A stretch of 64,000 nucleotides of DNA from a virus (taxonomy: Duplodnaviria > Caudoviricetes). The notes below the pieces were generated by a model. The model saw only the letters and a list, made by a program, of their open reading frames with translations. It was not told where the DNA came from and ran no database searches. The position numbers and the translations under genes are program-made. Positions 32,321 to 51,483 of the stretch are shown piece after piece (positions within the stretch are counted from its first letter, which is position 1; every line of letters starts with the position of its first letter). The stretch lies in the IMG/VR virus record IMGVR_UViG_3300015606_001334, positions 96,001 to 160,000 of that record, one strand, 5' to 3'.

Positions 32321-32581
32321 CTAACAAAAAGTGGTTATTGGGTTTCAGAATAGTCGTAACTATCCCTAAGACAGTTTATCCAACTGACAAGCATCTGATT
32401 ATTCTTTCAGCAAATATCCGATTTTCTCTTACCGGCAAAATGTTAGGATTCTTCCCAACGCATATCAAGTTTAATTCAAGGAGGATTTTAGTCCTTGTTC
32501 CCTATGTTGCTACAAAACTTGCAAATCTATCAACTCCAAAGGACGGGTATCATATTTAGGTAACCAATTCCCAACGGTTAG
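32321..32581 (-). ncRNA. GGTTATC-module RNA, long form (paralog of 48505..48764)
   Basis: CTAACCG..AATTGGTTAC / CCAAT..TTTTTGTTAG closing helix; shared internal motifs. Confidence 0.65.
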
Positions 32582-32670
32582 AACATTAACTTTTAACCTA
32601 ATCACTAGTGACATTTCTACAATAGCAGAATAATTTCTGCATATAAAAACTAATAGGTACTAATAGGTTT

Positions 32671-32744
32671 TGGAGCGGGATAGGAGAATCGAACTCCTTT
32701 AGCCAGCTTGGAAGGCTGGAACTCAACCAATGAGCCAATCCCGC
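32671..32744 (-). tRNA. tRNA-Gly(TCC)
   Basis: CCAGC CTTCCAA GCTGG, U73, CCA. Confidence 0.9.
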
Positions 32745-32748
32745 AAAT

Positions 32749-32873
32749 GATAAACGAAAGTAGTAATCGAAAGATAGCGCCTTTCAGCGAACTATTTGAT
32801 GGGCTTGAACCATCTAACACGTGGATTATTAGTCCTCTTGTATTAACCGATAATCAATTACTTGCGGTTTATC
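32749..32873 (-). ncRNA. GGTTATC-module permuted tRNA mimic (AAT anticodon-like loop, T arm)
   Basis: GATAAACCG..AATTGATTATC; GGA CTAATAA TCC; GATGG TTCAAGC CCATC. Confidence 0.7.
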
Positions 32874-32875
32874 TT

Positions 32876-32951
32876 TGGTGGGTGTACGTGGATTTGAACC
32901 ACGGACCATCGCCTTATCAAGACGGTGCTCTACCAACTGAGCTATACACCC
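32876..32951 (-). tRNA. tRNA-Ile(GAT)
   Basis: loop TTGATAA, CCA. Confidence 0.92.
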
Positions 32952-32960
32952 ATTAAGCAT

Positions 32961-33082
32961 CAACAAAATTTGCAGACCGAGAGAAGTAATTTCGGCATCC
33001 GTGAGGATTTAGGCTACTACAACCTTACCGTTTTTGTTTTCACCAAATTGAAGTAGATAGATAACAGTCCACAGGTCGGTTG
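32961..33082 (-). ncRNA. divergent GGTTATC-module RNA
   Basis: CAACCG..GGACTGTTATC / CGGTCT..TTTTGTTG. Confidence 0.5.
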
Positions 33083-33087
33083 GTACT

Positions 33088-33163
33088 TGGTGGAGCTAGT
33101 CGGACTCGAACCGACCACCTACAGCTTGCAAAGCTGCCGCTCTCCCAGATGAGCTATAGCCCC
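33088..33163 (-). tRNA. tRNA-Ala(TGC)
   Basis: G3.U70, loop TTTGCAA, CCA. Confidence 0.93.
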
Positions 33164-33229
33164 AAGTAAAATACTGCATATAGACTATATATTGTTTCCT
33201 GCAGTATTTTTGTATTCTATCAAGAAAAA

Positions 33230-33523
33230 TTATTGTTGTAAACTGTTTTGCGCAACTTTATTTTCAGAGTTTTTACCAATATGGAATCCATCACAATGCA
33301 CACACTTGTAATTGCTGAAATAGACTCCACGCTTCTTCGCCATAGCTTGAGCTGCTTTGGTTGCAGAAGCTTTTGAGCTGTAAGAAATCTTTGGTTTGCC
33401 GTCTGCATTTTCGTGCGACCGCTTACTGAACAAACCAATCAAATGACCCTTTCGAAGGTTACGAATAAACCTTGAAAGAGGCAACTGATCTTTCAGTGCT
33501 AGATAAATGTTTCGGAGTTTCAC
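33230..33523 (-). CDS. basic hypothetical protein
   Basis: YKCVHCDGFHIG motif. Confidence 0.65.
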   Translation of the reverse strand: MKLRNIYLALKDQLPLSRFIRNLRKGHLIGLFSKRSHENADGKPKISYSSKASATKAAQAMAKKRGVYFSNYKCVHCDGFHIGKNSENKVAQNSLQQ

Positions 33524-33764
33524 TTGAGTATTTCGCGTAATTGATTTTGACGATCTGCTTTGTCGAGAAGGTCAGTTAGATCCAAGTCGGCTGGAGGAAC
33601 CCTGTCAGAGAGCTTATTGCGGTACAACAGCTCATTGACCTTCTCCTCCACCCTATAATATCGAGTCAAAATCCAATCAGCGATCGATTGAAAGTTCATG
33701 ATATGCAGCCTTGCGAGTAACATGGTTTTCTCCTTAAGTGCATTATATCATAAATCCCGAAAAA

Positions 33765-34301
33765 TTACATGACTGGATCAACAGCCTTAACTTCTGGTTC
33801 AACTTTTGCTTGGGATACAGCTTGAGCGCCCTTAGTTCTGAGAAGAGAAACAAGAGAGCTTAGATCACGAGCAATACGGTCCAACTCAATTTGAAGCTTT
33901 TGCTTGTCTTCTGCGTTGATTAGCTCAGCCCAAAAGTTGATGCGTTCTTCTTGATCATGGGACTGTTTAACAATCTTTTCGATTGCAGTAGCATGGTCAA
34001 AGTCAGAAGTAACTAGAATCGAAAAGACAACGTCTCTTAGATTTTGCTGAAGAGTATTCGAAGAAATTTGCTTGTTGATGACGCGCTCGATCTTTTCAAG
34101 AGCTGCGCAGAACTTAGCAACATGTTCGCTAGACCAAAGTTCACCAACAGTTTCTGCTGGAGTTTTGCCGTTAGCGTAGGTGGTACGAAGGTTACGAATC
34201 ATTTCAGCCGCAGATTCGAATAGAAGATCAGAAGCTTGTGGGCTTGAGGACTCTAGAACCTGTTGGAATGAAAGAACCTGTTTGATGTCATTGATTTTCA
34301 T
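33765..34301 (-). CDS. putative late/internal protein
   Basis: MKINDIKQVLSFQQVLESS leader; TAAATA upstream. Confidence 0.6.
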   Translation of the reverse strand: MKINDIKQVLSFQQVLESSSPQASDLLFESAAEMIRNLRTTYANGKTPAETVGELWSSEHVAKFCAALEKIERVINKQISSNTLQQNLRDVVFSILVTSDFDHATAIEKIVKQSHDQEERINFWAELINAEDKQKLQIELDRIARDLSSLVSLLRTKGAQAVSQAKVEPEVKAVDPVM

Positions 34302-34359
34302 AATAGAAATAGGGAGTAGTTGTCTACTCCCTATTTATTACTTCTTGATCTGAAAGCGA

Positions 34360-34770
34360 TTAAGCGAAGGACTTACGGGCCAGATCAACCGAGAAGGTCT
34401 TGAATTCGCCGGTGGCAGTTTCACGAACAATGATCGGCAAACGAGCATTTGCGCTACGGGCGCCGACGATCGTATATGCGCGACCTTGATGGGTCAGCTT
34501 ACGGCCAAGGTCTTCACGAGAAAGACCAAAGGAGAAGTAGTTTCGCATGAAGTTGGAAACCCACTTTGGATCGACGTCAGAACCGGCAGCCGAAGTATCT
34601 TCATTGAGGACCATCGACGTCATTTTGGCAGAGAACTCATTTTCAGAGTAGGTAATCTTGCCAACGCCGATCTTGATGCCGAACTTCTTTTCGACTTCAG
34701 CCAATGCCGCGGTCATTTCAGCACGGATCTGGTTGAGGTTGGAAGGATTGAAAGCGGCGATCTTGGTCAT
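34360..34770 (-). CDS. hypothetical early protein
   Basis: GAGGAG RBS, early promoter at 34805-34834. Confidence 0.7.
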   Translation of the reverse strand: MTKIAAFNPSNLNQIRAEMTAALAEVEKKFGIKIGVGKITYSENEFSAKMTSMVLNEDTSAAGSDVDPKWVSNFMRNYFSFGLSREDLGRKLTHQGRAYTIVGARSANARLPIIVRETATGEFKTFSVDLARKSFA

Positions 34771-35216
34771 CTTTGAAACTCCTCATCAGTTAATCGATAA
34801 GTTGTATTCTACACTCAAACCCGAAAAAGTAAACAACTTTTTATTCGTCGCTGTCTCTAAAGCGGAAGCCACAAGCCTCTAGATCTAGATCGGCAGGGAA
34901 GGTGTAATAATCTGGACCACCGTCATTTGCCCAATATGATTCTGGATCTTCTTCAATTAGATCTTCTGCCTTCTTGGTATCACGATACCAGTCAATACAG
35001 GAGGAACCATCACCCAAATCTCGAATTATGCTGCAGATTACTTGTTGTTCCGACATTTTGCTTCCTTTAGAAGTTCGTCTAAAATCTCTTGGTCGATTGC
35101 GTCAGAAAGGCGTCTAGCCGCAAGATCATAGCTTTTGTCCATGATTTGCTGCATAGGCGCCTTTTCTTTTATGAGTCCGTCTAGTTCTTGTTGTAATTGT
35201 GCGACGGACGTCATGA

Positions 35217-35501
35217 TTAGCGGCTTGCTACTGCGAGACGCTTGGAGTCGTAAGTGACTTCGCCGACACAACCAACTTTACGCATTGCTGCTGCCATCTT
35301 TTGACGGATGTCGTATTCTTGACCGCCCCAAACTGGGCCATACGTAGCAACGATTTCAGCGCCATCAGAATAGATGTTTGCAGAAATCAGTTTGATACCA
35401 GAACGCTTGGCAAAATCGAGAACAACTTCTTTAGCCTTGGCGCCACGAGTTTTGGATAGGTTGATTTTGGACGTAACAACGCCCTGAGTCTTTTGTTGCA
35501 T
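35217..35501 (-). CDS. hypothetical protein
   Basis: 94-aa ORF. Confidence 0.6.
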   Translation of the reverse strand: MQQKTQGVVTSKINLSKTRGAKAKEVVLDFAKRSGIKLISANIYSDGAEIVATYGPVWGGQEYDIRQKMAAAMRKVGCVGEVTYDSKRLAVASR

Positions 35502-36156
35502 TTCAGGATTCCTTATCTAAGGAGTGGTTAAAAAACTTTTGATTGTACGGGGCCTTGCGCTCACAATGAACGCTTGTGATGATAGACAGAATTGCCAGTA
35601 GAACTGCAGCAAATCCGCTAATTGTATCTGACTGGTACAGTCCCGAAATTAGGGACATTGTAAGGCAATCAAAAAGATTTAGACGACGGCCGAAAAGAAA
35701 ATTCATTGATTAGATGGAGGGATTTCTCCCTCCACATCCTTACTCTTCGGACTTCTTCGGCTTACGGGCATTGCGCCAGTAGTTGGAAGAGGAGGCGCTC
35801 CACCAAGAATGCTTCTTGGTCTTGTTTTGGCGAGCACCAACGTTGAACGGCTGGGCTGCTGGGTTGGAAGGATGATTTTGGTACTGAAGCTTCTGAGACA
35901 TTTAGTCTTCTCCTTGTTGAAATTTATTGAATCTTGTTAGTCGCCGCCGAAATCGCCAAAAGAATCAGCCAAACCGGCAGCACCTTCGCCAGATGCGAAT
36001 CGAAAAATTAGCCCGATTACCGCGCCAATAATCGATCCGATAATGCAATGCTGGTCAAAAGCAAATTCGCCTACCAAACCGCCAATCGAACCGAAAATCA
36101 GAACTAAAACAAAAGTAATCATCACTTTCTCCAAAAGATGAGAAATTATAAACTAC

Positions 36157-36453
36157 TCATTTCTTATTGTAAACTGGTTTTTCAATCAGGGCATTAAAAT
36201 ATTCATTGATGAAATTACTAATAACTGCTTGCAACGCCCTCATAGAACGAGCAAAAGTTAAACTGACTGCGATAATTTGGTATGGGGTCTCAATGTACTT
36301 ATCTACTAGTTGTCTAATTTGGTCATGAGAAAACTCATCGAGCATCTGAAGAGTATCAACAGAATATCCATGATCAATCAGTAGAGAGGAAATGTATAAG
36401 GGACCAGCTGAAAGACTAAATGTCTCTGCGCTGATTACAACTACTTCTGCCAT
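36157..36453 (-). pseudogene. N-terminal fragment of a B12-binding radical SAM paralog
   Basis: GPLYISSLL..HGYSV..L....FS.DQIRQLVDKYI....IIAVSLTF resembles the N-terminus of 30552..32210; truncated. Confidence 0.6.
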
Positions 36454-36458
36454 TATTC

Positions 36459-37124
36459 TTAAAATTTAATCTTTCTGCCTTCACCCCATCCATCAGGAAG
36501 ACATTCTATCTTTTTTATTTTCTTGGAAATTTTCAATTCTAGATTGTGAATCCATCTTAATCCAAATTGAGAATTATTTTCTCCGGCATTTTTAGACTTT
36601 TGCATTTTCTGTTTGGTCTCTTCACTATGAGTCTTTCCTAAGAATGCGGTATTTCCTTTTCCGCCGAATGGCTTTTCACCATTTTCAGAACGAAGTTTCC
36701 AAGCTTCTGATAAACTATTACTCACTTTCGACTTGTACGTCGGGTCTGAAGACATTTTATCTGAATGCGCTTTTACCCATTGCCAGCATCTCTTGTCTAT
36801 CTCTTCGCGAGACGAATTTACGTGATACCATCCACCTTCTCCTCCTTGACGAAGATTCATGCAGAGCTTGTCGCTAATCAATTCAATAGTAACAAGCTCT
36901 TTCTCTCTCGCTACTAAATCTTCTCTTGAAAAGTAGTGCTCAAGAATTTCCATTTCATGGTTTTCTTTACCATATTTGTTTATCGATTTCCACAAATATG
37001 TTCCACTTCCAAAATAACCGTCATTTAGGTTATCTGTTGAATGCATTCCAATGTAAAACTTACCATTAAGCTTATTGATGATTCGATAAATATAATGGTA
37101 CTTTCTTCTTGACGCTCTTGTCAT
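36459..37124 (-). CDS. GIY-YIG (Seg-like) homing endonuclease
   Basis: YIYRIIN..NGKFYIGMHST..DGYFGSG; NUMOD3-like GKTHSEETKQKM. Confidence 0.9.
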   Translation of the reverse strand: MTRASRRKYHYIYRIINKLNGKFYIGMHSTDNLNDGYFGSGTYLWKSINKYGKENHEMEILEHYFSREDLVAREKELVTIELISDKLCMNLRQGGEGGWYHVNSSREEIDKRCWQWVKAHSDKMSSDPTYKSKVSNSLSEAWKLRSENGEKPFGGKGNTAFLGKTHSEETKQKMQKSKNAGENNSQFGLRWIHNLELKISKKIKKIECLPDGWGEGRKIKF

Positions 37125-37185
37125 TTCAAAATACTCTTAAACTAATAGGAGTATTTATATGAGGAAATGGCACTTTTATTCCGGG

Positions 37186-37259
37186 TCGGAGTAGAGAGAT
37201 TCGAACTCCCGACATCCTGCTCCCAAAGCAGGCGGTCTACCAGGCTGACCTATACTCCG
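37186..37259 (-). tRNA. tRNA-Pro(TGG)
   Basis: CCTGC TTTGGGA GCAGG; 3' end CCCGG instead of CCA. Confidence 0.9.
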
Positions 37260-37447
37260 AAATGAGGGTCCTAACTTATACCACGTCATCTAAATCCCTA
37301 CCCTCGGAAGGAAGTAGCACTTTGGCGCTGTATAAGCCATCAATCACTGGGTAACGAACTTCAGGTCCAGCTGCATTGATGTTGTAAAACTATTTATTGA
37401 ATTATATCAACTTACCAGAAAAAGTAAACTGATGTTGTGAAATTCTT

Positions 37448-37693
37448 TTAGGAATTTGCCCAAGCTCTGAGGTCATCGACTGTCTTGACACCAGACACTC
37501 GCTTTATTTCTTTGCCTGATTCAAGCATTACAAGGGTAGGAACGCCACGAATCTTGTACTCGGCGGAAAGGTCGCCCATTTCATCGACGTCAATTTCTTC
37601 TACAGGAACAGTCAGTTGAGCCTGTTCTAGATTCTTTGCCAGCATCTTACAAGGTTGGCACCACGTTGCGGAGAACTTTAGGATCTTTTTCAT
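37448..37693 (-). CDS. thioredoxin
   Basis: FSATWCQPCK, IRGVPTL. Confidence 0.92.
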   Translation of the reverse strand: MKKILKFSATWCQPCKMLAKNLEQAQLTVPVEEIDVDEMGDLSAEYKIRGVPTLVMLESGKEIKRVSGVKTVDDLRAWANS

Positions 37694-37895
37694 TTTTTAC
37701 CTTTCAAGGATTTTTCGTAGTCTTTGATTGCTTTAGCTACGTCTTTTTCGATTTTCGCCCAATGGAACTCCCATACTTCCTTACCGTCGACCTTGCTTAT
37801 GGTAAAGTGGTTGTTCTTAGCGACGATGCTCTTCTTTGATGCCATAATGTTCTCCGAAATGTTGATTGACGGAAATATTTATGGAAAGAAAACTG

Positions 37896-38270: not shown

Positions 38271-38304
38271 ACGAAATCAAATTAAATTGTAGATGGCAAC
38301 ATCC

Positions 38305-38854: not shown

Positions 38855-39418
38855 TTCAGTCGTTCATCAATCCGTCAAACAACTCTTGAGAGTATTTGTG
38901 TAGCTCGTCATAAAGCTCTGGAATGTCAAAGGTGTCGCTTAAAACACTATTCTTAGTGTTCACCAACTTGGGCGAACCGCCTCATTCTCGTCTTCAAGGA
39001 CGTAGAAGTTGGTTTTCGAAGTGTAAGCATTCAGAATCGGGAAATTGACGACATGCGAACGTCTACCACGATCTGTGTGAGGATAAAGCTTACTACCGTT
39101 TTTGAATACTAGTGCAGTCCCTAGCGGCCATTGGATCCCCTTCATTAGCTCCTCGAGGAATGGGAACTTCTCTATGTTTGGAATGAGACTGAATGAAAAC
39201 GGCTGGAACTCATAAGCTTTTTCGACTTGCTTATTTTCGTCAGGAACAATTGGGATACCTTCCTCAACTCGAGTTCTGAAGTAACGATCTACAGCTTCTT
39301 GTAGTTGAGGAGTAGGATGCTCTGACAGCTCAAGAACATGGTCAGCAAATGCTTGAATGTCTGAGTCTGGAATATCAGGAAAAGCCTTGATGTCTAGATG
39401 AAATACTTTTTCGGTCAT
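38855..39418 (-). pseudogene. cupin/2OG-Fe(II) oxygenase-like gene with internal TGA or deletion
   Basis: LYPHTD..R..VVNFP motif; frame stays open about 34 codons past the TGA at 38960. Confidence 0.5.
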
Positions 39419-40233
39419 TTTTTACATGCTGAAATGAGATAGTTCTTTGAACGTTCTGGGTAGGCAGTACTAAACATTGCCATGAAGAATCCATAAGAGA
39501 ACCTTCTAGTCAAGTCGCTCAATGGCTTTTCTTGTTCTGACGGATTATCAAGATCTAGCATTACAGAACGGGTGATAGCACCAAAATGATCTAGTAGGGC
39601 GAAGTTTGTTACTTCTAAAGCGTCTTTCAGTTCTTCAAAAGAGAACTCGTAAATGTGACCGTGCTTAGTGTATTGGCCACCAACTGCCTTTGAGATGAAT
39701 TCTTCTCCAAGATGCTTCTTGGGATTTGGTGCGCTTAGTACAAGGCGGCCATGATCAAACAGAAGTTTATTGCATGAATCAAGCATTCTGATTGCATCTT
39801 CTTTTCCAACATGCTCTAAAACCTGTTGGGCTGAAATGACGTCGAATTGCTCCGTTATCACATCGTGAATCGCGGCGTCATCATTGATGTCTAAGTGTAT
39901 GAGTCTAATTTCGTCGCCGTAAATACTTCTGGCATCATCTAAAGATGATTGACGAACGTCTATGCCGACATACTCGATTTCTTTAGCTTCAAAGAACTTG
40001 AAATTGTTCTTCAGAAATCCAAATAGGGTGGCATTGCTGCACCCTATGTCTAGAATTTTAATTTTTGGTTTGGAATTTGAAAAAGCCACTGCTTCAATAA
40101 TCTGACACACGAACATGTAACGAAGAACGTTACCCCAAATTCGTGGTGAATTGAAATCAAGGTGCGAATCTCTAATCAATTTGAAAAGATCTTCTGCTCC
40201 GTCAATATGTGCTCTACTGTAATCTTCTTTCAT
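39415..40233 (-). CDS. class I SAM-dependent methyltransferase
   Basis: ILDIGC, YVGID, FDVI...VLEHV, G.LVLSAPN, HIYEFS..EL. Confidence 0.88.
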   Translation of the reverse strand: MKEDYSRAHIDGAEDLFKLIRDSHLDFNSPRIWGNVLRYMFVCQIIEAVAFSNSKPKIKILDIGCSNATLFGFLKNNFKFFEAKEIEYVGIDVRQSSLDDARSIYGDEIRLIHLDINDDAAIHDVITEQFDVISAQQVLEHVGKEDAIRMLDSCNKLLFDHGRLVLSAPNPKKHLGEEFISKAVGGQYTKHGHIYEFSFEELKDALEVTNFALLDHFGAITRSVMLDLDNPSEQEKPLSDLTRRFSYGFFMAMFSTAYPERSKNYLISACKK

Positions 40234-40504: not shown

Positions 40505-40649
40505 TGGTGGAGCCGACGGGTCTCGAACCACGTACGTCGCAAGGACACCGGTTTTACCTTAGATAACCATTTTCTGTCGGCTTATTTCTAAGCAAAAGTT
40601 TGAAAACGACTTTTTTGACCGGCGCGTCTACCAATTTCGCCACGACTCC
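40505..40649 (-). ncRNA. Leu-type tRNA scaffold with GGTTATC module in the anticodon arm
   Basis: Leu-type D arm and variable arm, T arm, CCA; CCGGT[~65 nt]ACCGG. Confidence 0.75.
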
Positions 40650-40652: not shown

Positions 40653-40770
40653 CGGTGGGGAGGAGTGGGTTTGAACCACTGACCTTCAGCGGAATACTGA
40701 TCACCTCAAGGCGGCCGCCAGATGAATGTTCTTCCAAACGCTGATGCTCTACCAACTGAGCTACCTCCCC
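40653..40770 (-). ncRNA. tRNA scaffold with anticodon loop replaced by a ~50-nt extension
   Basis: canonical acceptor, D and T arms; TCAGC[...]GCTGA. Confidence 0.7.
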
Positions 40771-41430: not shown

Positions 41431-41558
41431 TGGTTGAGGCGGAAGGAATCGAACCTTCTCTAGTCGGATATGAGTCGAGATAACCATCCACGAGCGGCGT
41501 ATCTCTACGCAAAAGTTGCAGGCGATGTTTTCCTGTGCTGCCAGTACACTACGCCTCA
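41431..41558 (-). ncRNA. tRNA(CAT) scaffold with GGTTATC module inserted in the 5' strand of the anticodon stem
   Basis: TGAGGCG/CGCCTCA-ACCA; ...GGATGGTTATC TCGA CTCATAT. Confidence 0.75.
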
Positions 41559-42623: not shown

Positions 42624-42751
42624 TGGTGCCCCGACCCGGGATCGAACCGGGATGACCGAAGTCGACAGATTTTCTTAAGCGGGCTCAGTCACTAAGTTTC
42701 AGAACCCGCTTCGTGAAAGTCTGTTGCGTCTACCAATTTCGCCATCGGGGC
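42624..42751 (-). ncRNA. tRNA-Leu(TAA) with ~43-nt hairpin inserted in the anticodon
   Basis: ACAGA CTT[TCACG..TTAAG]AAAA TCTGT; Leu body, CCA. Confidence 0.75.
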
Positions 42752-45011: not shown

Positions 45012-45152
45012 GGTCTCCCTGGATGGACTCGAACCATCGGCCCCCATAATTCCGCAGCTTAAGATGAGTTGCTACCCATCTCCGAAAATTCCATTTCGAT
45101 TTGGTCCTTTACCATGAGCGGTGGAGAGCTCTACCAACTGAGCTACAGGAAG
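45012..45152 (-). ncRNA. tRNA scaffold with ~70-nt structured anticodon replacement
   Basis: canonical D arm AGCTCAGTTGGTAGAGC and T arm GATGG TTCGAGT CCATC. Confidence 0.65.
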
Positions 45153-45616: not shown

Positions 45617-45716
45617 ATTTGATGGTATCAACTAACTTTTCGATCGCATTGTCCGTCTCTCCTATGCTCGAATACCTAAAGTACGGACTTTCTATCATGA
45701 CATCGTTTCAACCATC

Positions 45717-45792
45717 TGGTGGGACTTGACGGGTTCGAACCGCCGACCCTCTCCTTGTAAGGGAGACGCTCTACCAACTGAGCTAAAGTCCC
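45717..45792 (-). tRNA. tRNA-Val(TAC)
   Basis: loop CTTACAA. Confidence 0.93.
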
Positions 45793-45912
45793 AAGATTTA
45801 GAACTTTTCCAAGCGTTACCAAGGATTCTCTTCGAGGATTCTCCACATACCCGTTAATAGATATGCTTCAAATTGTTCTACCCCTAGTTGGGAATCTACC
45901 CAACACGGATAC

Positions 45913-45985
45913 TGGAGCGGGCGACGAGATTCGAACTCGCCTGTTCCGGCTTGGAAGGCCAGACGTTCTCCAGTTGACCGCCCGC
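45913..45985 (-). tRNA. tRNA-Gly(TCC), atypical D arm
   Basis: loop CTTCCAA, U73. Confidence 0.75.
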
Positions 45986-45989
45986 ATAA

Positions 45990-46096
45990 GACTAACAAAA
46001 GTAGAAATTGACTAAAGTTGCATCCAGCATTCAAGAGGAGAATCGAACTCCTAACTCCATTTTCGCAGAATAGATAACCAATTTCAAGCGGTTAGC
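45990..46096 (-). ncRNA. GGTTATC-module permuted tRNA mimic (GCG loop, T arm)
   Basis: CTAACCG..GAAATTGGTTATC; ATT CTGCGAA AAT; AGGAG TTCGATT CTCCT. Confidence 0.7.
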
Positions 46097-46098
46097 TT

Positions 46099-46174
46099 TG
46101 GCTCTGTAGGGTGGGCTCGAACCACCGACCGACGGATTAACAGTCCGTTGCTCTACCAACTGAGCTACTACAGA
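46099..46174 (-). tRNA. tRNA-Asn(GTT)
   Basis: ACGGA CTGTTAA TCCGT. Confidence 0.92.
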
Positions 46175-46211
46175 ATAGAAAGGAACTTTGTTAAGAGTTC
46201 CTTTTTGTTAA

Positions 46212-46481
46212 TTAAGCGCTTTCAGAGCCGCTCTTAACGAATGCATCTAGCGACTTTTGAGCTGCTTCGCTAAATGGGGTGACTTCGATTACTTGAGACC
46301 AAGTAACTGCACCAAGATCAACAGATTCACCAACTGCAACGGTGACTTCGTCGAATGGATAAGAAGTCTTATCAGCTTCGTCGACTACTGGACCGTCGCC
46401 GTTTGCGACGTTGTAAACCTTACCAGACTTTTTGAATTGAACCTTGACTGGATTTTGTGCTTCGTTTTTGAAAACAGACAT
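46212..46481 (-). CDS. hypothetical late protein
   Basis: AGGAGA RBS, TATAAATA upstream, terminator downstream. Confidence 0.65.
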   Translation of the reverse strand: MSVFKNEAQNPVKVQFKKSGKVYNVANGDGPVVDEADKTSYPFDEVTVAVGESVDLGAVTWSQVIEVTPFSEAAQKSLDAFVKSGSESA

Positions 46482-46554
46482 TTTATTTCTCCTATAAGAA
46501 AACAACATGTTGTGGGTAACCAACAATGCTATTTATATTTTTCGGAGATTCATT

Positions 46555-46630
46555 TGGTGCCCCAGGACTAGAATTGAACTGTCGACCCCTTCCTTACAAG
46601 GGAAGTGCTCTACCACTGAGCTACAAGGGC
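46555..46630 (-). tRNA. tRNA-Thr(TGT)
   Basis: CTTCC CTTGTAA GGAAG. Confidence 0.88.
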
Positions 46631-46706
46631 ATTTGCGATTTAAACCTTGAAGGCCTCCATTTCTGGACGTTACTACAAACCTTAAGATGACGCATGAGTT
46701 ATTTAT

Positions 46707-46791
46707 TGGTGCCCATCGCCGGACTCGAACCGGCACTCCTTTCGGAAGTAGATTTTGAGTCTACCGCGTCTACCAATTCCGCCAGACGGGC
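46707..46791 (-). tRNA. tRNA-Leu(CAA)
   Basis: GTAGA CTCAAAA TCTAC. Confidence 0.92.
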
Positions 46792-46923
46792 AAGGCGTTT
46801 ACTTAACCGTATGATCCAAGATGCCATCCTTCAAAGGTGGCCTATGTCAGTCACGATTTCTACGGTCTTCTCTGACTCAGCTGTCATACTCACTGCAGAA
46901 TTTTGTATGACAAACAAGTAAAC

Positions 46924-46998
46924 TGGTGCCCAAGGTTGGAATCGAACCTACGACCTCTTTCGTACCAAGAAAGCGTTCTACCACTGAACTACGAGGGC
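46924..46998 (-). tRNA. tRNA-Thr(GGT)
   Basis: CTTTC TTGGTAC GAAAG. Confidence 0.9.
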
Positions 46999-47008
46999 AT
47001 AAAATGTT

Positions 47009-47095
47009 TGGTGCTCTAGGAGGGACTCGAACCCTCACGTCCTTTCGGACACAACGACCTCAACGTTGCGCGTCTACCAATTCCGCCACCAGAGC
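47009..47095 (-). tRNA. tRNA-Leu(GAG)
   Basis: CAACG TTGAGGT CGTTG. Confidence 0.92.
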
Positions 47096-47099
47096 ATTT

Positions 47100-47202
47100 T
47101 GGCCCATCGCGAAGGATTTGAACCTTCATTTAACCTGGACGGAATCGAACCGTCTCGTTGGGATTCGCGCGAATAGTACCCAGGGAACCAACCCACGATG
47201 GA
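47100..47202 (-). ncRNA. tRNA-like RNA with two T arms
   Basis: GACGG TTCGATT CCGTC and GAAGG TTCAAAT CCTTC inside a CCATCG/CGATGG acceptor ending GCCA. Confidence 0.55.
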
Positions 47203-47515
47203 TGGTGGAAACTGGCGAGGGGCTCATTCCCCACAACCTTCCAATCACGAAGTCTTATTAAGCTACAACACTCCACTTAATGGACTGGCCGGTCCAAGAA
47301 GCTTCATCATGTTGGGAGGACTTGTTTCCTCCACCTCGGCGTCTTCTGAGCTATAATAATTTATTAGAGCTACCACCTTGGAGCGCTCTCGAATGCATGG
47401 TATCCAGCCCCTACATTCTACACTCTTCTGCTTTAGACTCCGTGACCTACTCAGTACCAATGGCTGGCCCATTGTACTTTTATCCCGAAGAACGGATATA
47501 ATCAGTCACAGTTTC

Positions 47516-47595
47516 CGGCGCTGAAGGTAGGATTCGAACCTACAACCCCCACACAATGAGGCAGGAGCTCTTACCAAACGAGACTTACATCAGCA
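47516..47595 (-). tRNA. atypical or pseudo tRNA (CAT-containing 8-nt loop)
   Basis: good T arm and acceptor; irregular D and anticodon arms. Confidence 0.45.
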
Positions 47596-47715
47596 AAATC
47601 GAAAGGTATCAGTTACCAGGCTGATCTTTATTCATTAGTTCAGCATCTCTCGCATCCACTTTTTCAGGGGAGAGCAACCTTCCTAACTATTCGCCTAAAT
47701 TTCTTAGGACCTTTC

Positions 47716-47800
47716 TGGTGCCCTGGGAGGGACTCGAACCCACACGCCTTGCGGCGCCAGAACCTAAATCTGGTGCGTCTACCAATTTCGCCACCAGGGC
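47716..47800 (-). tRNA. tRNA-Leu(TAG)
   Basis: CCAGA TTTAGGT TCTGG. Confidence 0.92.
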
Positions 47801-47876
47801 AATTCATTATGGCTAACTTCGGATCCTTGGCCTTCGGCGTTCTAGTAGTTAGCAACGTACCCGTCATAATGAAATT

Positions 47877-47962
47877 TGGAGCGCAGGGTGTGATTCGAAC
47901 ACACGTGGGATTTCTCCGAGAGGTTTGCAATCTCCCGCCTTCGACCGCTTGGCTACCTGCGC
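47877..47962 (-). tRNA. tRNA-Cys(GCA) with long variable arm
   Basis: loop TTGCAAA, U73, variable arm CGGAGAAATCCC. Confidence 0.8.
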
Positions 47963-48243
47963 AAAGTGTACGTGGTGACTAGCCTTAAGTATCATGCCTG
48001 ATACAATTGGTGCCGTACGAACCATTCGTAATTTTTACATCTTCGATCAGATGGCTACCATCAGCGGTTTGCCTTTCTGCCAGTCGAATAACCCAGAGAT
48101 TGGTCAAATGGGCTTCTTTTGATTATCGATTCACGAAGAGAAAAACGGCTTTCATACGATGCAAGCAGCACGCCTAGCGACTCAGTCCTAGGAGAGGTCC
48201 CTTAACCTGGAAATCTAGGAGATTCACTTAGTCAAAATGAATC

Positions 48244-48321
48244 TGGCCTCGCGAGAGGGATTCGAACCCCCGACCCGCTGCTTAGAAGGCAGCTGCTCTA
48301 GTCCAACTGAGCTACCGCGAG
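48244..48321 (-). tRNA. tRNA-Arg(TCT)
   Basis: GCTGC CTTCTAA GCAGC. Confidence 0.92.
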
Positions 48322-48504
48322 AAAAACAATTCTTAGCCCTGGAATTACTTATGAGAATCCGCATAGTTCCAGTTTAACGGCCCTCACTAAGAATTGGGCG
48401 CATATGGAGATCATTGAAATCGTCTATCACCGTGCTTAGTTTCGTACTGAAGCGTACGTCTTTAGACTTATCGGCACCGTCACCCTTCCGGCTCATATGC
48501 GTAG

Positions 48505-48764
48505 TCATTGACAAAATTTAGATATCGGATATTCAGAGAAAAGCGAACTTAACTCCTAGTTAGATGGGTCAGTCACCTAACAACCGCCTACTTATTCTTA
48601 GTAGGAAATATCGACGTTATTCTATGTCGACAATAATCAAATTGTAATCGAGGAGGAGCAAGCTCCTTGTTCCCTCTGTTGTCCGTCAATTTGAAAAAAT
48701 AGACAACATCTCAATTAAGGACGATCATTAGCTATTAAGATAACCAATATCTCGCGGTCAATGA
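48505..48764 (-). ncRNA. GGTTATC-module RNA, long form
   Basis: TCATTGACCG..GATATTGGTTATC / CCGATATC..TTTTGTCAATGA. Confidence 0.7.
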
Positions 48765-48765
48765 T

Positions 48766-48841
48766 TGGTGGAACTGAAGGGAATCGAACCCTCAACATCT
48801 AGCTTGCAAAGCTAGCGCTCTCCCAATTGAGCTACAGCCCC
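48766..48841 (-). tRNA. tRNA-Ala(TGC)
   Basis: G3.U70, loop TTTGCAA. Confidence 0.92.
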
Positions 48842-49014
48842 AAAGTAAATGATATTTAATGTTCCAGCTTTTGGCATACTCTCTTAGGCTTCAGACCCAG
48901 GGATGTCAGCCCTTTTGCGCCTGCCAGGTTTCTTGCATGAACTTTTGACAGATTTTCTCATGCTCAAGGAATCCACCCAAACCAGCGTGTAACTTAGAGG
49001 GCTTCCATATCATT

Positions 49015-49100
49015 TGGTGCACCAGGTAGGATTCGAACCTACTCACCCAGAGGGAACAGATTTACAGTCTGCCGTAACTCTCCAACTTTACCGCTAGTGC
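49015..49100 (-). tRNA. tRNA-Tyr(GTA)
   Basis: GCAGA CTGTAAA TCTGT, long variable arm. Confidence 0.9.
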
Positions 49101-49104
49101 AATA

Positions 49105-49225
49105 CAATCAAACAAAGATAAAAATCGAATTGCTGCGCCCAATTTCTTGCAGCTCATAAATCCGAAGACCTATGATGGAGTCGAACCATTCATCTGATAG
49201 ATAATCGATTTTCGACGGTTTGATT
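49105..49225 (-). ncRNA. YrlA/Y-RNA-like permuted tRNA mimic with GGTTATC-type module
   Basis: closing helix, then T arm (ATGG TTCGACT CCAT), acceptor closed by UUCG, D-like arm. Confidence 0.75.
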
Positions 49226-49310
49226 GGTGGTCTATCTAGGTAACGATCCTAGCCAACCCGAAGGTATCAGTTTTACAGACTGCGCGGCGTCCTTAGCCGA
49301 ATACTAGACC
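49225..49310 (-). tRNA. tRNA-Tyr(GTA), atypical
   Basis: loop CTGTAAA; non-canonical T loop ATCGTTA. Confidence 0.65.
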
Positions 49311-49488
49311 TTGAAACTTAAAAATGCTCTTTTGTTACTTGATACTCAGGAGAAGGATATTCTTCCTTCTTAGCTTTCAAAAGCTCATTTGCTTCTGCTA
49401 CAGTGAGACACTTACGAGTAAAAACCGTAGTGTATCCCTTCATAACCACAATGTGCCAAAACTTCATGCTTACTTCTCCCTTAATAAT

Positions 49489-49562
49489 TGGTTGCGGGCA
49501 GGGGAATCGAACCACCTTCCCAACTGGCTTATGAGACCAGCGTCAGACCTTCTGAACCCGCA
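49489..49562 (-). tRNA. tRNA(CAT) Met/Ile2, atypical D arm
   Basis: CTGGT CTCATAA GCCAG, CCA. Confidence 0.7.
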
Positions 49563-49568
49563 ATTGAG

Positions 49569-49645
49569 AGATAAACAAAGGAGTGGAAATTGGGGATTGG
49601 ATCAAAGTGGAAGTTTGAGATAACCAATTTCCTTTCGGTTTATCT
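49569..49645 (-). ncRNA. minimal GGTTATC-module RNA presenting a Gly(TCC) anticodon stem-loop
   Basis: GGAAATTGGTTATC TCAAA CTTCCAC TTTGA..CCAATTTCC. Confidence 0.7.
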
Positions 49646-49735
49646 GGCGGAGGCGGTGAGATTCGAACTCACGGACCTTTTTAGGGATCGGTAGTTTTCA
49701 AGACTACTGCGTTAAACCAGCTCTGCCACGCCTCC
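49645..49735 (-). tRNA. tRNA-Ser(TGA)
   Basis: GTAGT CTTGAAA ACTAC, long variable arm, G73. Confidence 0.92.
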
Positions 49736-50068
49736 ATTTTTACGATTCCTCGACTTGTAAGTACTCAACTGTGAATCACAATTGCTACAGACAAATCTTA
49801 GATTTTCTAATCTATTGTCGTTGTTAACACCGTTGATGTGGCCAAGAATTAATGGCATAGGTTTCCCTTGCCATTCAGGACCAATTCCACAGCATGCGCA
49901 ACGATATTCGATTAACTTTCCATCTAATATTCGACTCTTTACATGATGTCTAGCGAGAGTCGAATTTTCAGAAAAAACTTCTTCATCCGTCTTTCTTATC
50001 GACCGATGATACTCTGTTAATCCTGGTTTCTTTCCTTTATTCCAAGGGACACTTCCTTTTGATGCCAT
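49712..50068 (-). CDS. HNH endonuclease
   Basis: CACCG, HINGVNNDNRLENLRFVCSNC; stop lies inside tRNA-Ser. Confidence 0.85.
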   Translation of the reverse strand: MASKGSVPWNKGKKPGLTEYHRSIRKTDEEVFSENSTLARHHVKSRILDGKLIEYRCACCGIGPEWQGKPMPLILGHINGVNNDNRLENLRFVCSNCDSQLSTYKSRNRKNGGVAELV

Positions 50069-50128
50069 AATCTGCTAAAAGTTATTTCAACAGATGTATT
50101 TATTGCACCAGTTTGTGAAACAATAGGG

Positions 50129-50192
50129 AATCAAACAAAAAGCGATGATCGACGCTTTTCCAATAAGATAACCAATCATCAACGGTTTGATT
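50129..50192 (-). ncRNA. minimal GGTTATC-module RNA (TGG loop)
   Basis: AATCAAACCG..GATTGGTTATC..GTCGATC..TTTTTGTTTGATT. Confidence 0.65.
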
Positions 50193-50283
50193 TGGCTCCG
50201 GCCTCAGGGATCGAACCTGATTGAAACCTTATGAGGGCCTCCTGGTTAACAGCCAGTTGCTCTACCAATTGAGCTACGCCGGA
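50193..50283 (-). tRNA. tRNA-Asn(GTT) whose variable arm is a second anticodon-like hairpin (CAT)
   Basis: CTGG CTGTTAA CCAG then GAGGCC CTCATAA GGTTTC. Confidence 0.75.
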
Positions 50284-50289
50284 ATTGTA

Positions 50290-50401
50290 AACTAACAAAA
50301 ATAGATATCGAGTAATGCGGCACCCAGCTTCCAAATCGGGAATCGAACCCAATCCTTCGTTTTTTCCATAAAAAGAGATAACCGATATCAAGCGGTTAGT
50401 T
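50290..50401 (-). ncRNA. GGTTATC-module permuted tRNA mimic (ATG loop, T arm)
   Basis: CTAACCG..GATATCGGTTATC; TTT TTATGGA AAA; GGG TTCGATT CCC. Confidence 0.7.
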
Positions 50402-50476
50402 GGTTGCGGGAGTTGGACTTGCACCAACCTTGGCCAGCTTATGAGACTGGTGATGAACTTTCTCCTCTATCCCGCA
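50401..50476 (-). tRNA. tRNA(CAT), atypical
   Basis: CCAGT CTCATAA GCTGG; T loop TGCAAGT; CCA. Confidence 0.65.
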
Positions 50477-50483
50477 ATCAAAA

Positions 50484-50599
50484 GATAAACAAAACTAGTA
50501 ATCGATGAACCTCTTTCGAGGGTGAAGGGCTTGAACCTTCTAACTTGTGGATGATTAGTCCTCTCGTATTATCCGATAACCAATTACTCACGGTTTATC
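50484..50599 (-). ncRNA. GGTTATC-module permuted tRNA mimic (AAT loop), paralog of 32749..32873
   Basis: GGA CTAATCA TCC; GAAGG TTCAAGC CCTTC. Confidence 0.7.
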
Positions 50600-50981
50600 A
50601 ATTACTTCTTCCTTTTCCTCCTTTAGCTGACATATTCCTATGCCATTCTTTGAACTCTTCAGGAGAAAGAGAATTCTTCATTTTTGTTATGTATGAAATT
50701 CGTTTATTCTGACGATAATCATCTCTCAAATTATCTGAGTATGTTCCCCAATACAAATGATTTGGATTTGAGCATTTACCATTTCCACAGCCATGACAAC
50801 AAATAACTTTCTTACCTGTCGGTATTGTGGTTTTAAGATGGTGTGCTAATAACCCTCTAAATTCTACAGAGCTATATCCACCAATTTCAATACAAGGCTC
50901 GTCAAGTTTAAGGTGCTTCTGTCTATCTTCTACAGGAAGCTCAATATACTCAAGAATTTCTACGAAACTGGTAGGAGACAT
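50598..50981 (-). CDS. HNH (His-Cys box-like) homing endonuclease; start uncertain
   Basis: CCHGCGNGKCSNPNHLYWGTYSDNL.D. Confidence 0.75.
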   Translation of the reverse strand: MSPTSFVEILEYIELPVEDRQKHLKLDEPCIEIGGYSSVEFRGLLAHHLKTTIPTGKKVICCHGCGNGKCSNPNHLYWGTYSDNLRDDYRQNKRISYITKMKNSLSPEEFKEWHRNMSAKGGKGRSN

Positions 50982-51043
50982 GGGACTCGAACCCACAACC
51001 TCGACATTAAAAGTGTCTTGCTCTACCATTGAGCTAATCTCCC
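50969..51043 (-). tRNA. tRNA-Lys(TTT)
   Basis: loop CTTTTAA, CCA. Confidence 0.9.
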
Positions 51044-51055
51044 ATTAAATGAATC

Positions 51056-51130
51056 TGGTGGTCGATGCTGGATTTGAACCAGCGACCTATCGCTTATCAA
51101 GCGAGTGCTCTACCACTGAGCTAATCGACC
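51056..51130 (-). tRNA. tRNA-Ile(GAT)
   Basis: loop TTGATAA, CCA. Confidence 0.9.
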
Positions 51131-51169
51131 AGCAGGAATGACTGCAATCATTCCTTTACTACTATGTAC

Positions 51170-51298
51170 CGGTGCAGTCTGAAGGAATCGAACCTCCGTC
51201 TTCGCCTTGTAATGGATAACCATTTTCAAGCGGTTCATTTTCATGAACAAATTCAGAAAACGATGTTTATCGCTGTTCTACCACTGAACTAAGACTGC
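51170..51298 (-). ncRNA. tRNA-Val(TAC) scaffold with GGTTATC module inserted near position 29/30
   Basis: removing the insert restores a CGCC/GGCG stem and ATTACAA loop. Confidence 0.75.
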
Positions 51299-51354
51299 AA
51301 AAATGAATCTGGCCTAAATACCATTAGGTTGGTACAACTTTACCGCAGATTCAA

Positions 51355-51483
51355 GGTGGAGAGTAGAGGATTCGAACCTCTGACCACGTGCTTAACAGGC
51401 AGATAACCAATTTCGGCCGGTTTGAGCAAACAAACAAAGAGTGAAATCGACATTTACGTGCTCTACCACTGAGCTAACTCCCC
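51355..51483 (-). ncRNA. tRNA(GTT) scaffold with GGTTATC module inserted near position 29/30; G3.U70 acceptor
   Basis: removing the insert restores CGTGC CTGTTAA GCACG. Confidence 0.78.

What the first reader, a model, noticed from the sequence alone, without database searches (positions are those of the whole stretch)
32321..51483. Family of about 14 tRNA-derived RNAs built on one conserved bulged helix, in both inserted and circularly permuted topologies
Seen: the same helix recurs 14 times between tRNAs. One strand is AACCG-N3-6-(A)ATTGGTTATC and the other is (G/T)CGATT(T/A)C-N-TTTTGTT. The stems vary with compensating changes while the CCG, TTTTG and GGTTATC elements stay fixed. In four copies it is inserted into the anticodon arm of an otherwise complete tRNA (40505, 41431, 51170, 51355). 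In ten copies it closes the molecule and tRNA parts lie inside (32321, 32749, 32961, 45990, 48505, 49105, 49569, 50129, 50290, 50484). Most copies place a 7-nt anticodon-like loop just 3' of GGTTATC (GTT, TAC, CAT, TCC, TGG, GCG, ATG; AAT twice after a short spacer). Known: bacterial YrlA Y RNAs are permuted tRNA mimics with a protein-binding stem in place of the anticodon arm, but I do not see their Ro-binding consensus here and no Ro60 gene is in the window. Inference: a modular RNP system with a constant protein-binding handle and a variable anticodon or tRNA payload, for example decoys or guides against anticodon nucleases, or adaptors for a phage enzyme.
Basis: partly seen in the sequence, partly recalled or inferred. 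Interest (0 to 1): 0.95.

Follow-up and report, generated by a model that had tools for sequence, protein, structure and literature searches.

The report
Phage Y RNAs for Ro60
The 14 repeated RNAs scattered through this giant phage's tRNA genes are very probably Y RNAs, the small partner RNAs of the ring protein Ro60 (which the phage encodes elsewhere in its genome), and four of them are unusual in being whole tRNAs with the Ro60 docking arm grafted beside the anticodon.

Summary
Fourteen minus-strand elements between 32321 and 51483 share one bulged helix. Its stems covary: 95.6% of cells are paired and 13 of 15 pairs show double changes. CCG, GGUUAUC and UUUUG stay fixed. It has a lower stem with a bulged C (N[C]CG/UUG), an upper stem, and UUAUC opening the loop, with the same CCG-10 nt-GUUAUC spacing as human Y4. 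The 360-kb phage encodes a full Ro60 (TROVE plus vWA, E 1e-103 to Rsr) 47 kb before the window. In 80 diverse phage Ro60 loci the same handle descriptor gave 98 hits on the Ro60 strand, 6 on the opposite strand, 4-9 in shuffles and 0 in capsid-gene control loci. No Rfam family reaches its threshold. Ten copies are closed Y RNAs filling the spacers between tRNAs. Their loops hold nothing, a T-arm minihelix, or about 210 nt of unknown RNA. Four are complete tRNAs with the handle emerging at nucleotides 27-30. Whether these four are spliced is open. No EndA or RtcB gene was found, and no single cut rule fits. This scan has found the same family on other phage DNA (at least 7 genomes). Verdict: a new variant of a known kind.

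The parts
32321..32583 (-). Divergent long Y RNA (TTACC variant, weak H2). About 213-nt payload, paralogous to the copy at 48505.
   Evidence: weak partial R1 hit at 32508-32583
32749..32873 (-). Closed Y RNA: handle, hairpin, T arm and a capped acceptor-like hairpin. Lies between tRNA-Ile and tRNA-Gly.
   Evidence: R1 111.4 bits; fold
32958..33085 (-). Divergent closed Y RNA. H2 is fully compensated (TGTGGACT/GGTCTGCA). D-arm-like UUCAAUUUGGUGAAA follows UUAUC.
   Evidence: R1 12.9 bits
40505..40649 (-). tRNA-Y hybrid: a type II (Leu-like) tRNA with the handle at 40562-40609 capped by GAAA. The anticodon loop is not canonical after any simple excision.
41431..41558 (-). tRNA-Y hybrid: tRNA with anticodon CAT and the handle at 41479-41525 capped by GAGA. 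CCA is encoded.
   Evidence: similar CAT hybrid in relative G002
45990..46097 (-). Closed Y RNA with a T arm. Its payload is almost identical in relative G005, although the helix differs.
   Evidence: R1 93.4 bits
48505..48763 (-). Long closed Y RNA with a roughly 210-nt payload of unknown nature.
49107..49224 (-). Closed Y RNA with a T arm and two further hairpins.
   Evidence: R1 103.4 bits
49570..49644 (-). Short closed Y RNA. Its loop holds a 5-bp hairpin with the loop CUUCCAC. It starts directly after the CCA of tRNA-Ser.
   Evidence: R1 33.4 bits
50130..50191 (-). Minimal 62-nt Y RNA (stem, bulge, stem, 14-nt loop).
   Evidence: R1 41.8 bits; end-to-end alignment to the sbRNA family RF01656, weak
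50290..50401 (-). Closed Y RNA: UUUUUAUGGAAAAA hairpin, T arm and a further hairpin. Orthologues occur in five relatives.
   Evidence: R1 98 bits
50484..50599 (-). Closed Y RNA: hairpin, T arm and CCCUCGAAAGAGG minihelix. Its 5' end overlaps the stop codon of an HNH ORF.
   Evidence: R1 100.4 bits
51173..51298 (-). tRNA-Y hybrid: tRNA-Val(TAC) with the handle at 51215-51263.
   Evidence: Rfam tRNA 46.9 bits
51357..51483 (-). tRNA-Y hybrid: tRNA-Asn(GTT) with the handle at 51402-51450.
   Evidence: Rfam tRNA 49.5 bits

Best explanation
These are Y RNA genes, the non-coding partners of the phage's own Ro60 protein. They are transcribed as part of the tRNA arrays (inferred). Most closed copies begin 0-3 nt after the 3' end of the upstream tRNA and end 4-9 nt before the next tRNA. 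The enzymes that trim tRNAs (RNase P and the 3' processing nucleases) would therefore also release the Y RNAs (inferred). The constant part is the Ro60 docking site: lower stem H1, bulged C with CG opposite UUG, a U-rich bulge on the 3' strand, covarying upper stem H2, then single-stranded UUAUC. The variable part gives each RNP a different second surface. It can be a bare loop, a T-arm/acceptor minihelix that mimics the tRNA elbow, a roughly 210-nt module, or, in four cases, a complete tRNA body. By analogy with known Ro60-Y RNA complexes, the RNA probably tethers Ro60 to a second protein or gates its access to RNA. The precedents are RYPER with PNPase, and Thermus phage phiLo Ro60-Yrl-PNPase. 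The likely business is the stability, quality control or repair of the phage's large tRNA set (inferred). The four hybrids most likely stay unspliced as Ro60-tethered tRNA bodies. I put that at about 60-65%.
For: The genome encodes a full Ro60. It is 535 aa with TROVE 138.6 bits and vWA_Ro60 191.2 bits. phmmer E-values are 9.5e-103 to D. radiodurans Rsr, 3e-101 to RO60 (9nen) and 2.8e-100 to Xenopus Ro60.

The motif matches published hallmarks. The vertebrate Ro60 site is a helix with a single bulged C and a 3-nt bulge on the opposite strand (PMC4726728). UUAUC is conserved at the 5' end of the sbRNA loop (PMC4450293). YrlA carries GNCGAA, likened to the Ro60-contacted GGUCCGA (PMC4201824). 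The human Y4 5' end, GGCUGGUCCGAUGGUAGUGGGUUAUCAG, has the same CCG-10 nt-GUUAUC spacing.

The same handle sits just upstream of annotated Ro genes, on the same strand, in three unrelated actinophages. The BearBQ pair hits the sbRNA family RF01656 at 29.3 and 28.6 bits (E about 3e-4), and the YrlA core at 26.7 bits. R1 was trained only on this window, and it hits an A3Wally RNA in the tRNA/Y RNA cluster about 2.7 kb upstream of its Ro gene at 24.4 bits, E 8e-4.

Across 80 diverse Ro60 loci of IMG/VR, 47 carry at least one handle. There are 98 on the Ro60 strand and 6 on the opposite strand. Shuffles give 4-9, and 79 capsid-gene control loci give 0.

All six genomes of this phage clade that are at least 94% complete have both Ro60 and R1 hits. 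Covariation is strong. Payloads fall into orthologous groups that are conserved between phages while the helices drift.
Against: No Rfam Y RNA family reaches its gathering score. The best match is RF01656 at 10.8 bits, E 6.3, on the minimal copy, and copy 49570 gives no hit at all.

The genes lie 79-98 kb from Ro60, whereas YrlA genes normally adjoin it. Within this clade every complete genome has both features, so co-occurrence there cannot discriminate.

The lower stem is AAAC/GUUU, not GGUC/GACC or GGGC/GCCC, and the CGAA of YrlA is not conserved. Binding to Ro60 has not been shown. No expression data could be obtained.
Confidence: 0.85

Rival explanations
1. In the four hybrids the handle is an intron. 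A protein recognises the bulged helix and cuts at its base, and a phage RNA ligase rejoins the halves to give decoding tRNAs. The closed copies would be related processing substrates.
For: Precise excision restores a perfect 5-bp anticodon stem and a canonical loop in 5 of 10 hybrids across phages. The anticodon loops are canonical in every hybrid I could parse. The hybrids differ widely from their intact isoacceptors yet keep the cloverleaf. The phage has an Rnl1-type ligase and two Rnl2-type RNA ligases. A Leu-TAA-like tRNA exists only as a hybrid.
Against: There is no tRNA splicing endonuclease and no RtcB in the genome. The structure is not a bulge-helix-bulge. The implied cut sites shift by 1-2 nt relative to UUAUC and fall after nt 27, 28 or 29, or inside the loop, so no single rule fits. 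The final C of the conserved UUAUC often doubles as tRNA nucleotide 30. The same helix occurs in 10 contexts with nothing to splice, and beside Ro60 genes in many phages. Asn, Val and Met/CAT have intact paralogues.
Confidence: 0.2
2. The helix is a spacer-processing signal read by a nuclease (RNase III, RNase E or a phage enzyme) to separate tRNAs in the polycistronic transcript. Ro60 is not involved.
For: Eight of 10 closed copies fill the gap between two tRNAs almost exactly. The helix is about 15 bp with an internal loop, like phage RNase III sites.
Against: Most tRNA spacers in the same arrays lack the helix. The conserved single-stranded motifs and the bulged C point to specific recognition. 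The handle is tied to Ro60 genes in unrelated phages, including ones where it lies upstream of Ro with no tRNAs flanking it. Cutting the helix would destroy the four hybrids.
Confidence: 0.06
3. The helix is a DNA-level element, either a mobile miniature repeat or a recombination or homing site that shuffles tRNA genes, helped by the interspersed HNH and GIY-YIG endonucleases.
For: The element sits in different tRNAs in different phages: Asn, Val, CAT and Leu here, Tyr in G001 and G005. Homing endonuclease ORFs are interspersed.
Against: All copies share the tRNA strand. Position-specific G-U pairs would be A-C mismatches on the other strand (U-G in 13 of 23 at one pair, G-U in 5 of 23 at another). 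The stems covary while the loops stay fixed, which is the pattern of an RNA. Payloads are conserved as orthologues.
Confidence: 0.03

Closest known systems
Bacterial and actinophage Y RNAs YrlA/YrlB (Rfam RF02553; Chen et al. 2014, PMC4201824)
   Same: They are partners of a Ro60 orthologue. They share the closing stem with the C[C]G motif, the upper stem and GGUUAUC; I saw this handle in the BearBQ, Sparky and A3Wally RNAs next to Ro. They have a tRNA-like module with a T arm and a capped acceptor stem, and several copies per genome near tRNA genes.
   Different: The lower stem is A/U-rich (AAAC/GUUU) and CGAA is not kept. No canonical D arm follows the acceptor hairpin. The genes are 79-98 kb from Ro60. 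There are 14 copies. Four copies are unpermuted whole tRNAs. The best RF02553 hits in this genome (29 bits or less, against a gathering score of 69) fall on tandem tRNAs, not on these elements.
Vertebrate Y RNAs and nematode stem-bulge RNAs (Rfam RF00019, RF01656)
   Same: The architecture is the same: a lower stem with a bulged C in CCG opposite UUG, an internal loop, a covarying upper stem, UUAUC opening a variable loop, and the same CCG-to-GUUAUC spacing as hY4. The minimal size is 62-75 nt.
   Different: The match is not statistically detectable (10.8 bits). There is no oligo-U tail and no Pol III context. The GUG/CAC replication motif of the upper stem is absent. The loops carry tRNA pieces.
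Thermus phage phiLo Ro60 with Yrl1/Yrl2 (PMC12135203)
   Same: It is a phage-encoded Ro60 with phage-encoded stem-bulge-stem partner RNAs. It provides a mechanistic precedent for engaging host PNPase.
   Different: phiLo has two RNAs beside the Ro60 gene, defined there by a CGAA motif. Its Ro60 is very distant from this one (PDB 9l5y and 9kop match at only E 5e-7). No tRNA hybrids are reported there.
Archaeal and eukaryal tRNA introns at non-canonical positions, and permuted tRNA genes (bulge-helix-bulge substrates)
   Same: Both have a short insert in the anticodon stem near position 29/30, and both exist in an inserted and a 'closing helix' topology.
   Different: There is no BHB geometry, no EndA and no RtcB. 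The closed copies do not contain complete tRNA halves, so they cannot yield tRNAs.

Membership tests
Y RNA (Ro60 partner RNA, broad sense) | A Ro60/TROVE protein is encoded by the same genome | tested here: met
   A 535-aa ORF at G000:47685-49292 has TROVE plus vWA_Ro60, with E 1e-103 to Rsr 2nvo. Ro60 is also present in all six genomes of the clade that are at least 94% complete.
Y RNA (Ro60 partner RNA, broad sense) | A stem closed by the RNA's two ends, with a bulged C in a conserved CCG opposite UUG and a bulge on the 3' strand | tested here: met
   CCG and UUUG are invariant in true copies, and H1 and H2 covary. In the 4 hybrids the stem is capped by a loop, so it is not closed by the ends.
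Y RNA (Ro60 partner RNA, broad sense) | UUAUC at the 5' edge of the variable loop (sbRNA/Y hallmark) | tested here: met
   TTATC occurs in 13 of 14 copies here (TTACC once). GGTTATC occurs 22 times in the window against 5.8 expected. The hallmark is described in PMC4450293.
Y RNA (Ro60 partner RNA, broad sense) | The same handle is genomically linked to Ro60 genes in independent lineages | tested here: met
   Across 80 Ro60 loci there are 98 same-strand handles, 6 on the opposite strand, 4-9 in shuffles and 0 in 79 control loci. Three of 3 actinophages examined carry it.
Y RNA (Ro60 partner RNA, broad sense) | Physical binding to Ro60, and stabilisation by it | not testable with these tools
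   This needs EMSA or RIP.
Rfam families Y_RNA RF00019, sbRNA RF01656, YrlA RF02553 | Score at or above the family's gathering threshold | tested here: not met
   There is no hit at gathering. The best is RF01656 at 10.8 bits against 38 on copy 50130. Copy 49570 gives none. RF02553 hits of 29 bits or less lie on tandem tRNAs.
YrlA subfamily | A tRNA-like domain in the order T arm, capped acceptor stem, D arm, with the Ro stem in place of the anticodon arm | tested here: not met
   A T arm is seen in 5 closed copies, and at least two of them (32749, 50484) also have a capped hairpin. No D arm follows it. A D-like or anticodon-like hairpin precedes the T arm instead. The hybrids keep the anticodon loop.
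YrlA subfamily | The gene adjoins the Ro60 gene | tested here: not met
   All copies lie 79-98 kb from Ro60. None lies near it.
BHB-type tRNA introns / permuted tRNA genes | A bulge-helix-bulge at the exon-intron junctions, with a splicing endonuclease and RtcB available | tested here: not met
   The junctions are 4-9-nt and 5-nt single strands around a three-way junction. PF01974 and PF01139 are absent.
BHB-type tRNA introns / permuted tRNA genes | The closed copies contain both halves of a tRNA | tested here: not met
   The payloads are 14-79 nt or unrelated 210-nt modules. At most a T arm and a 3' part are present.

The most novel reading that the evidence does not exclude
The four hybrids, and their counterparts in related phages, are never spliced. 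They would be full tRNA bodies with authentic anticodon loops and CCA ends that stay covalently fused to the Ro60 handle. The phage would thereby display a panel of specific tRNAs on Ro60, either as baits or adaptors for tRNA-recognising enzymes such as host anticodon nucleases, or to hand tRNAs to the phage's repair and turnover machinery.
Probability: 0.15. Interest if true: 0.85.

Novelty: new variant of a known kind. Interest (0 to 1): 0.55.

Why it matters
Ro60-Y RNA particles are conserved from bacteria to humans, yet what the variable half of a Y RNA does is still largely unknown. This is especially true of the tRNA-like module of bacterial Y RNAs. Here one phage offers 14 natural variants on a single handle. 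They range from a bare 62-nt stem-loop to complete tRNAs, and orthologous sets occur in related phages. That makes module-by-module pull-downs and knock-outs feasible. The finding also shows that the animal-type hallmarks (bulged C in CCG, UUAUC) extend to phage Y RNAs that current Rfam models miss. Many Ro60-encoding phages therefore probably carry unannotated Y RNA genes inside their tRNA arrays. In practice, these elements and the hybrid tRNAs should not be annotated as intron-containing or pseudo tRNAs.

Tried and rejected
1. Sarcin-ricin-loop mimic. Copy 50484 contains UACGAGAGGAC, which I recalled as an 11-mer of the 23S sarcin-ricin loop. It is not kept in the orthologues (L150:8619, L147:2965, L154:12485) and overlaps an anticodon-arm-like hairpin, so I dropped it as coincidence.
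2. Permuted tRNA genes. The payloads are too short or lack 5' halves.
3. Small self-cleaving ribozymes or another Rfam family. Nothing was found at E up to 10 across the region, and no hit on the 210-nt payload.
4. Canonical YrlA elsewhere in the genome. None was found.
5. Thermodynamic z-scores to pick the strand. They were uninformative, because both strands fold similarly.
6. A loose 14-base pattern scan of viral contigs. It was swamped by chance matches. The 17-base pattern gave 20 loci, of which 13 were coding-region coincidences.
7. An automated excision scan with ARAGORN. It was too permissive to define splice sites, so I replaced it with an explicit stem and loop test.
8. Public RNA-seq look-up.
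9. Co-occurrence within the phage clade. Every complete genome has both Ro60 and the RNAs, so this gives no contrast. I therefore tested linkage across unrelated Ro60 loci instead.

Full report
SETTING. The window is G000:96001-160000 of a single 359,550-bp viral contig. It is a T4-like jumbo phage: it has a gp23-type capsid gene and no close cultured relative. The window holds 29 tRNA genes and a permuted tmRNA, all on the minus strand. The motifs of the finding are on that strand too.

THE OBSERVATION. Read 5' to 3' on the minus strand, each closed copy has this layout:
- H1a, usually ending in AAC
- CG, then N2-4
- H2a (8 nt), then UUAUC
- the payload
- H2b, then N1-5, then UUU(U)
- G plus H1b

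In four copies the order is turned inside out (H2b ... H1b, cap, H1a-CG ... H2a-UUAUC), and the unit sits inside a tRNA. A descriptor that demands both helices finds 11 strict copies, all between 40562 and 51450 on the minus strand. Shuffled genomes give 1-4 hits. The copies at 32321, 32749 and 32961 are slightly deviant members.

I built covariance model R1 from five copies. It finds seven copies in the window at E < 1e-4 and nothing elsewhere in the genome. On 23 matches from this phage and five relatives, 95.6% of cells are paired. Thirteen of 15 pairs have changes on both sides, and sliding the partners drops pairing to 24-50%. That alignment is model-fitted, which favours the structure, but the margin is large. 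MFE folds of the individual copies give the same two helices.

WHAT IT IS. Three lines of evidence converge on Y RNA, the partner of Ro60.

(a) The genome encodes a complete Ro60 at G000:47685-49292. It has TROVE and Ro60-type vWA domains. phmmer E-values are 9.5e-103 to D. radiodurans Rsr and about 1e-100 to vertebrate Ro60 structures.

(b) The fixed nucleotides are the published hallmarks of Y RNAs.
- The vertebrate Ro60 site is a helix with one bulged cytidine and a 3-nt bulge on the other strand (PMC4726728). Here AAA[C]CG faces UUG-UUU, with extra U's bulged.
- Nematode stem-bulge RNAs, which are homologues of Y RNAs, carry a highly conserved UUAUC at the 5' end of the loop (PMC4450293). 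Here UUAUC follows H2 in 13 of 14 copies.
- The 5' end of human Y4, GGCUGGUCCGAUGGUAGUGGGUUAUCAG, has CCG, 10 nt, then GUUAUC. This is the spacing seen in most copies here.
- Rfam's sbRNA family RF01656 aligns end to end with the 62-nt copy in that register, but only at 10.8 bits.

(c) Linkage to Ro60 in other lineages, which I tested directly.
- In Gordonia phage BearBQ and Mycobacterium phage Sparky, RNAs with GC[C]G, N10-11, GGUUAUC and a matching 3' strand lie on the Ro strand in the few hundred bases upstream of the annotated Ro gene. In Microbacterium phage A3Wally one lies about 180 nt upstream and five more 2.5-3 kb upstream, in its tRNA cluster.
- The BearBQ pair scores 29.3 and 28.6 bits on RF01656. 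Its tRNA-like core scores 26.7 bits on YrlA.
- R1, trained only on this window, hits an A3Wally copy at 24.4 bits, E 8e-4.
- With a Ro60 profile I fetched 80 diverse Ro60 loci from IMG/VR (39-93% identity, plus or minus 3 kb). The strict descriptor finds handles in 47 of them. There are 98 on the Ro60 strand against 6 on the other, mostly within 1.5 kb upstream of the gene. Shuffles of the same loci give 4-9 in total, and 79 capsid-gene loci (155 kb) give none.

The handle is therefore a Ro60-linked RNA element across phages, and the window's family carries it.

RELATIVES. A specific pattern and R1 found the family in related jumbo-phage contigs, in both topologies and with many 60-65-nt minimal copies. 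All six genomes of the clade that are at least 94% complete have both Ro60 and the RNAs. This is consistent with the reading but gives no contrast.

Payloads fall into orthologous groups. Copy 45990 and its G005 counterpart share a nearly identical payload on different helices. The 50484 type keeps GGWUAAURC, a T arm and CCCUCGAAAGAGGUUYA. The 50290 type keeps a UUUUUAAUGGAAAUAAAAA hairpin and a T arm. The payloads are thus under their own selection.

ANATOMY AND LIKELY WORKING.
- Eight of the ten closed copies start 0-3 nt after the upstream tRNA's 3' end, and eight end 4-9 nt before the next tRNA. tRNA processing would therefore liberate them. This step is inferred.
- Payload classes are: bare loops (50130), a small hairpin (49570), a T arm with capped minihelices (32749, 45990, 49107, 50290, 50484), a D-arm-like hairpin (32961), and two paralogous roughly 210-nt modules with no Rfam match (48505, 32321).
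- By analogy with RYPER and with phiLo Ro60-Yrl-PNPase (PMC4726728, PMC12135203), the handle docks Ro60 and the payload recruits or gates a second factor. Iyer et al. noted TROVE proteins in a few jumbo phages as part of RNA repair (PMC7824862). This phage also has Rnl1- and Rnl2-type ligases. A role in tRNA surveillance, repair or turnover is the best guess. It is inference only.

THE HYBRIDS. The copies at 51357-51483 (Asn GTT), 51173-51298 (Val TAC), 41431-41558 (CAT) and 40505-40649 (Leu-like) are complete cloverleaves. The handle emerges from the 5' strand of the anticodon stem.
- They differ substantially from the intact isoacceptors in the genome but keep tRNA pairing.
- Hybrids with a very similar tRNA part recur in relatives: CAT in G002, and Tyr in G001 and G005.
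- Excision would restore a perfect stem and canonical loop in 5 of 10 hybrids. The implied junctions shift (after nt 27, 28 or 29; 3' side at -1, 0 or +1 from the end of UUAUC), and the last C of UUAUC often serves as nt 30.
- There is no EndA, RtcB or BHB.
- Asn, Val and Met have uninterrupted genes.

I therefore favour permanent chimeras, at about 60-65%, over spliced introns, at about 20%. Only RNA data can settle this.

COMPARISON AND NOVELTY. In working principle and in handle this is a Ro60/Y RNA system. It fails the Rfam thresholds and several YrlA-specific features, namely module order, adjacency to Ro60 and CGAA. I therefore file it as a Y RNA in the broad sense and not as a YrlA.

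I found no paper describing Y RNAs dispersed through tRNA arrays at this copy number, or tRNA-Y hybrids. The absence of a paper in a partial library is weak evidence. Earlier notes of this scan describe the same family in at least seven other phage genomes. I used them as a lead and tested the Ro60 linkage myself.

VERDICT. This is a new variant of a known kind.

Noticed in passing
window 40656-40770, 42627-42751, 45014-45152 (minus strand): Three further tRNAs (Rfam tRNA 59.4, 43.6 and 38.3 bits) carry 42-65-nt inserts in or at the anticodon loop. The inserts form long hairpins and lack the Y handle. They are a second kind of interrupted or 'display' tRNA in the same arrays.
   Followed up: partly
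window 50401-50476, 49490-49562, 49228-49312 (minus strand): These are tRNA-like genes missed by ARAGORN. Two have a CAT anticodon and aberrant D arms, and one is Tyr-like. Each lies directly beside a Y RNA copy.
   Followed up: partly
window 48505-48763 and 32321-32583 (minus strand): Two long family members share a roughly 210-nt payload (conserved CGUCCUU, CAACAKAGGGAACAAGGA...UCCUCCU, AAGAAUAA). It has no Rfam match and its nature is unknown.
   Followed up: partly
window 50555-50565 (minus strand, inside copy 50484): UACGAGAGGAC is, from memory, identical to 11 nt of the 23S sarcin-ricin loop. It is not conserved in orthologous copies of related phages, so it is probably coincidence.
   Followed up: yes
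window 49712-50068, 50598-51029, 36459-37124, 52363-53055 (minus strand): Small HNH-like ORFs (by motif) and GIY-YIG/NUMOD3 homing-endonuclease-like ORFs are interspersed among the tRNA and Y RNA genes. The stop codon of the ORF ending near 50598 overlaps the first bases of a Y RNA.
   Followed up: partly
window 50193-50283 (minus strand): tRNA-Asn(GTT) is 91 nt long, with an extra hairpin in the variable region. This is unusual for Asn.
   Followed up: no
window 23950-24023 and 60013-60466 (minus strand): There is a CTA-anticodon (amber suppressor type) tRNA, which ARAGORN calls tRNA-Pyl. There is also a two-piece permuted tmRNA with the tag ANDESYRVAA.
   Followed up: no
L238 (Microbacterium phage A3Wally MZ150783.1) 1966-2545 and 4774; L236 (Gordonia phage BearBQ) 4745-4965; L237 (Mycobacterium phage Sparky) 4620-4840: These are unannotated Y RNA genes with the same handle, upstream of the annotated 'Ro-like RNA binding protein' genes. 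A3Wally has at least six.
   Followed up: partly
window 30552-32210 and 39415-40233 (minus strand): A radical SAM protein and a class I methyltransferase are encoded within or beside the tRNA/Y RNA arrays. They are possible RNA-modifying enzymes.
   Followed up: no
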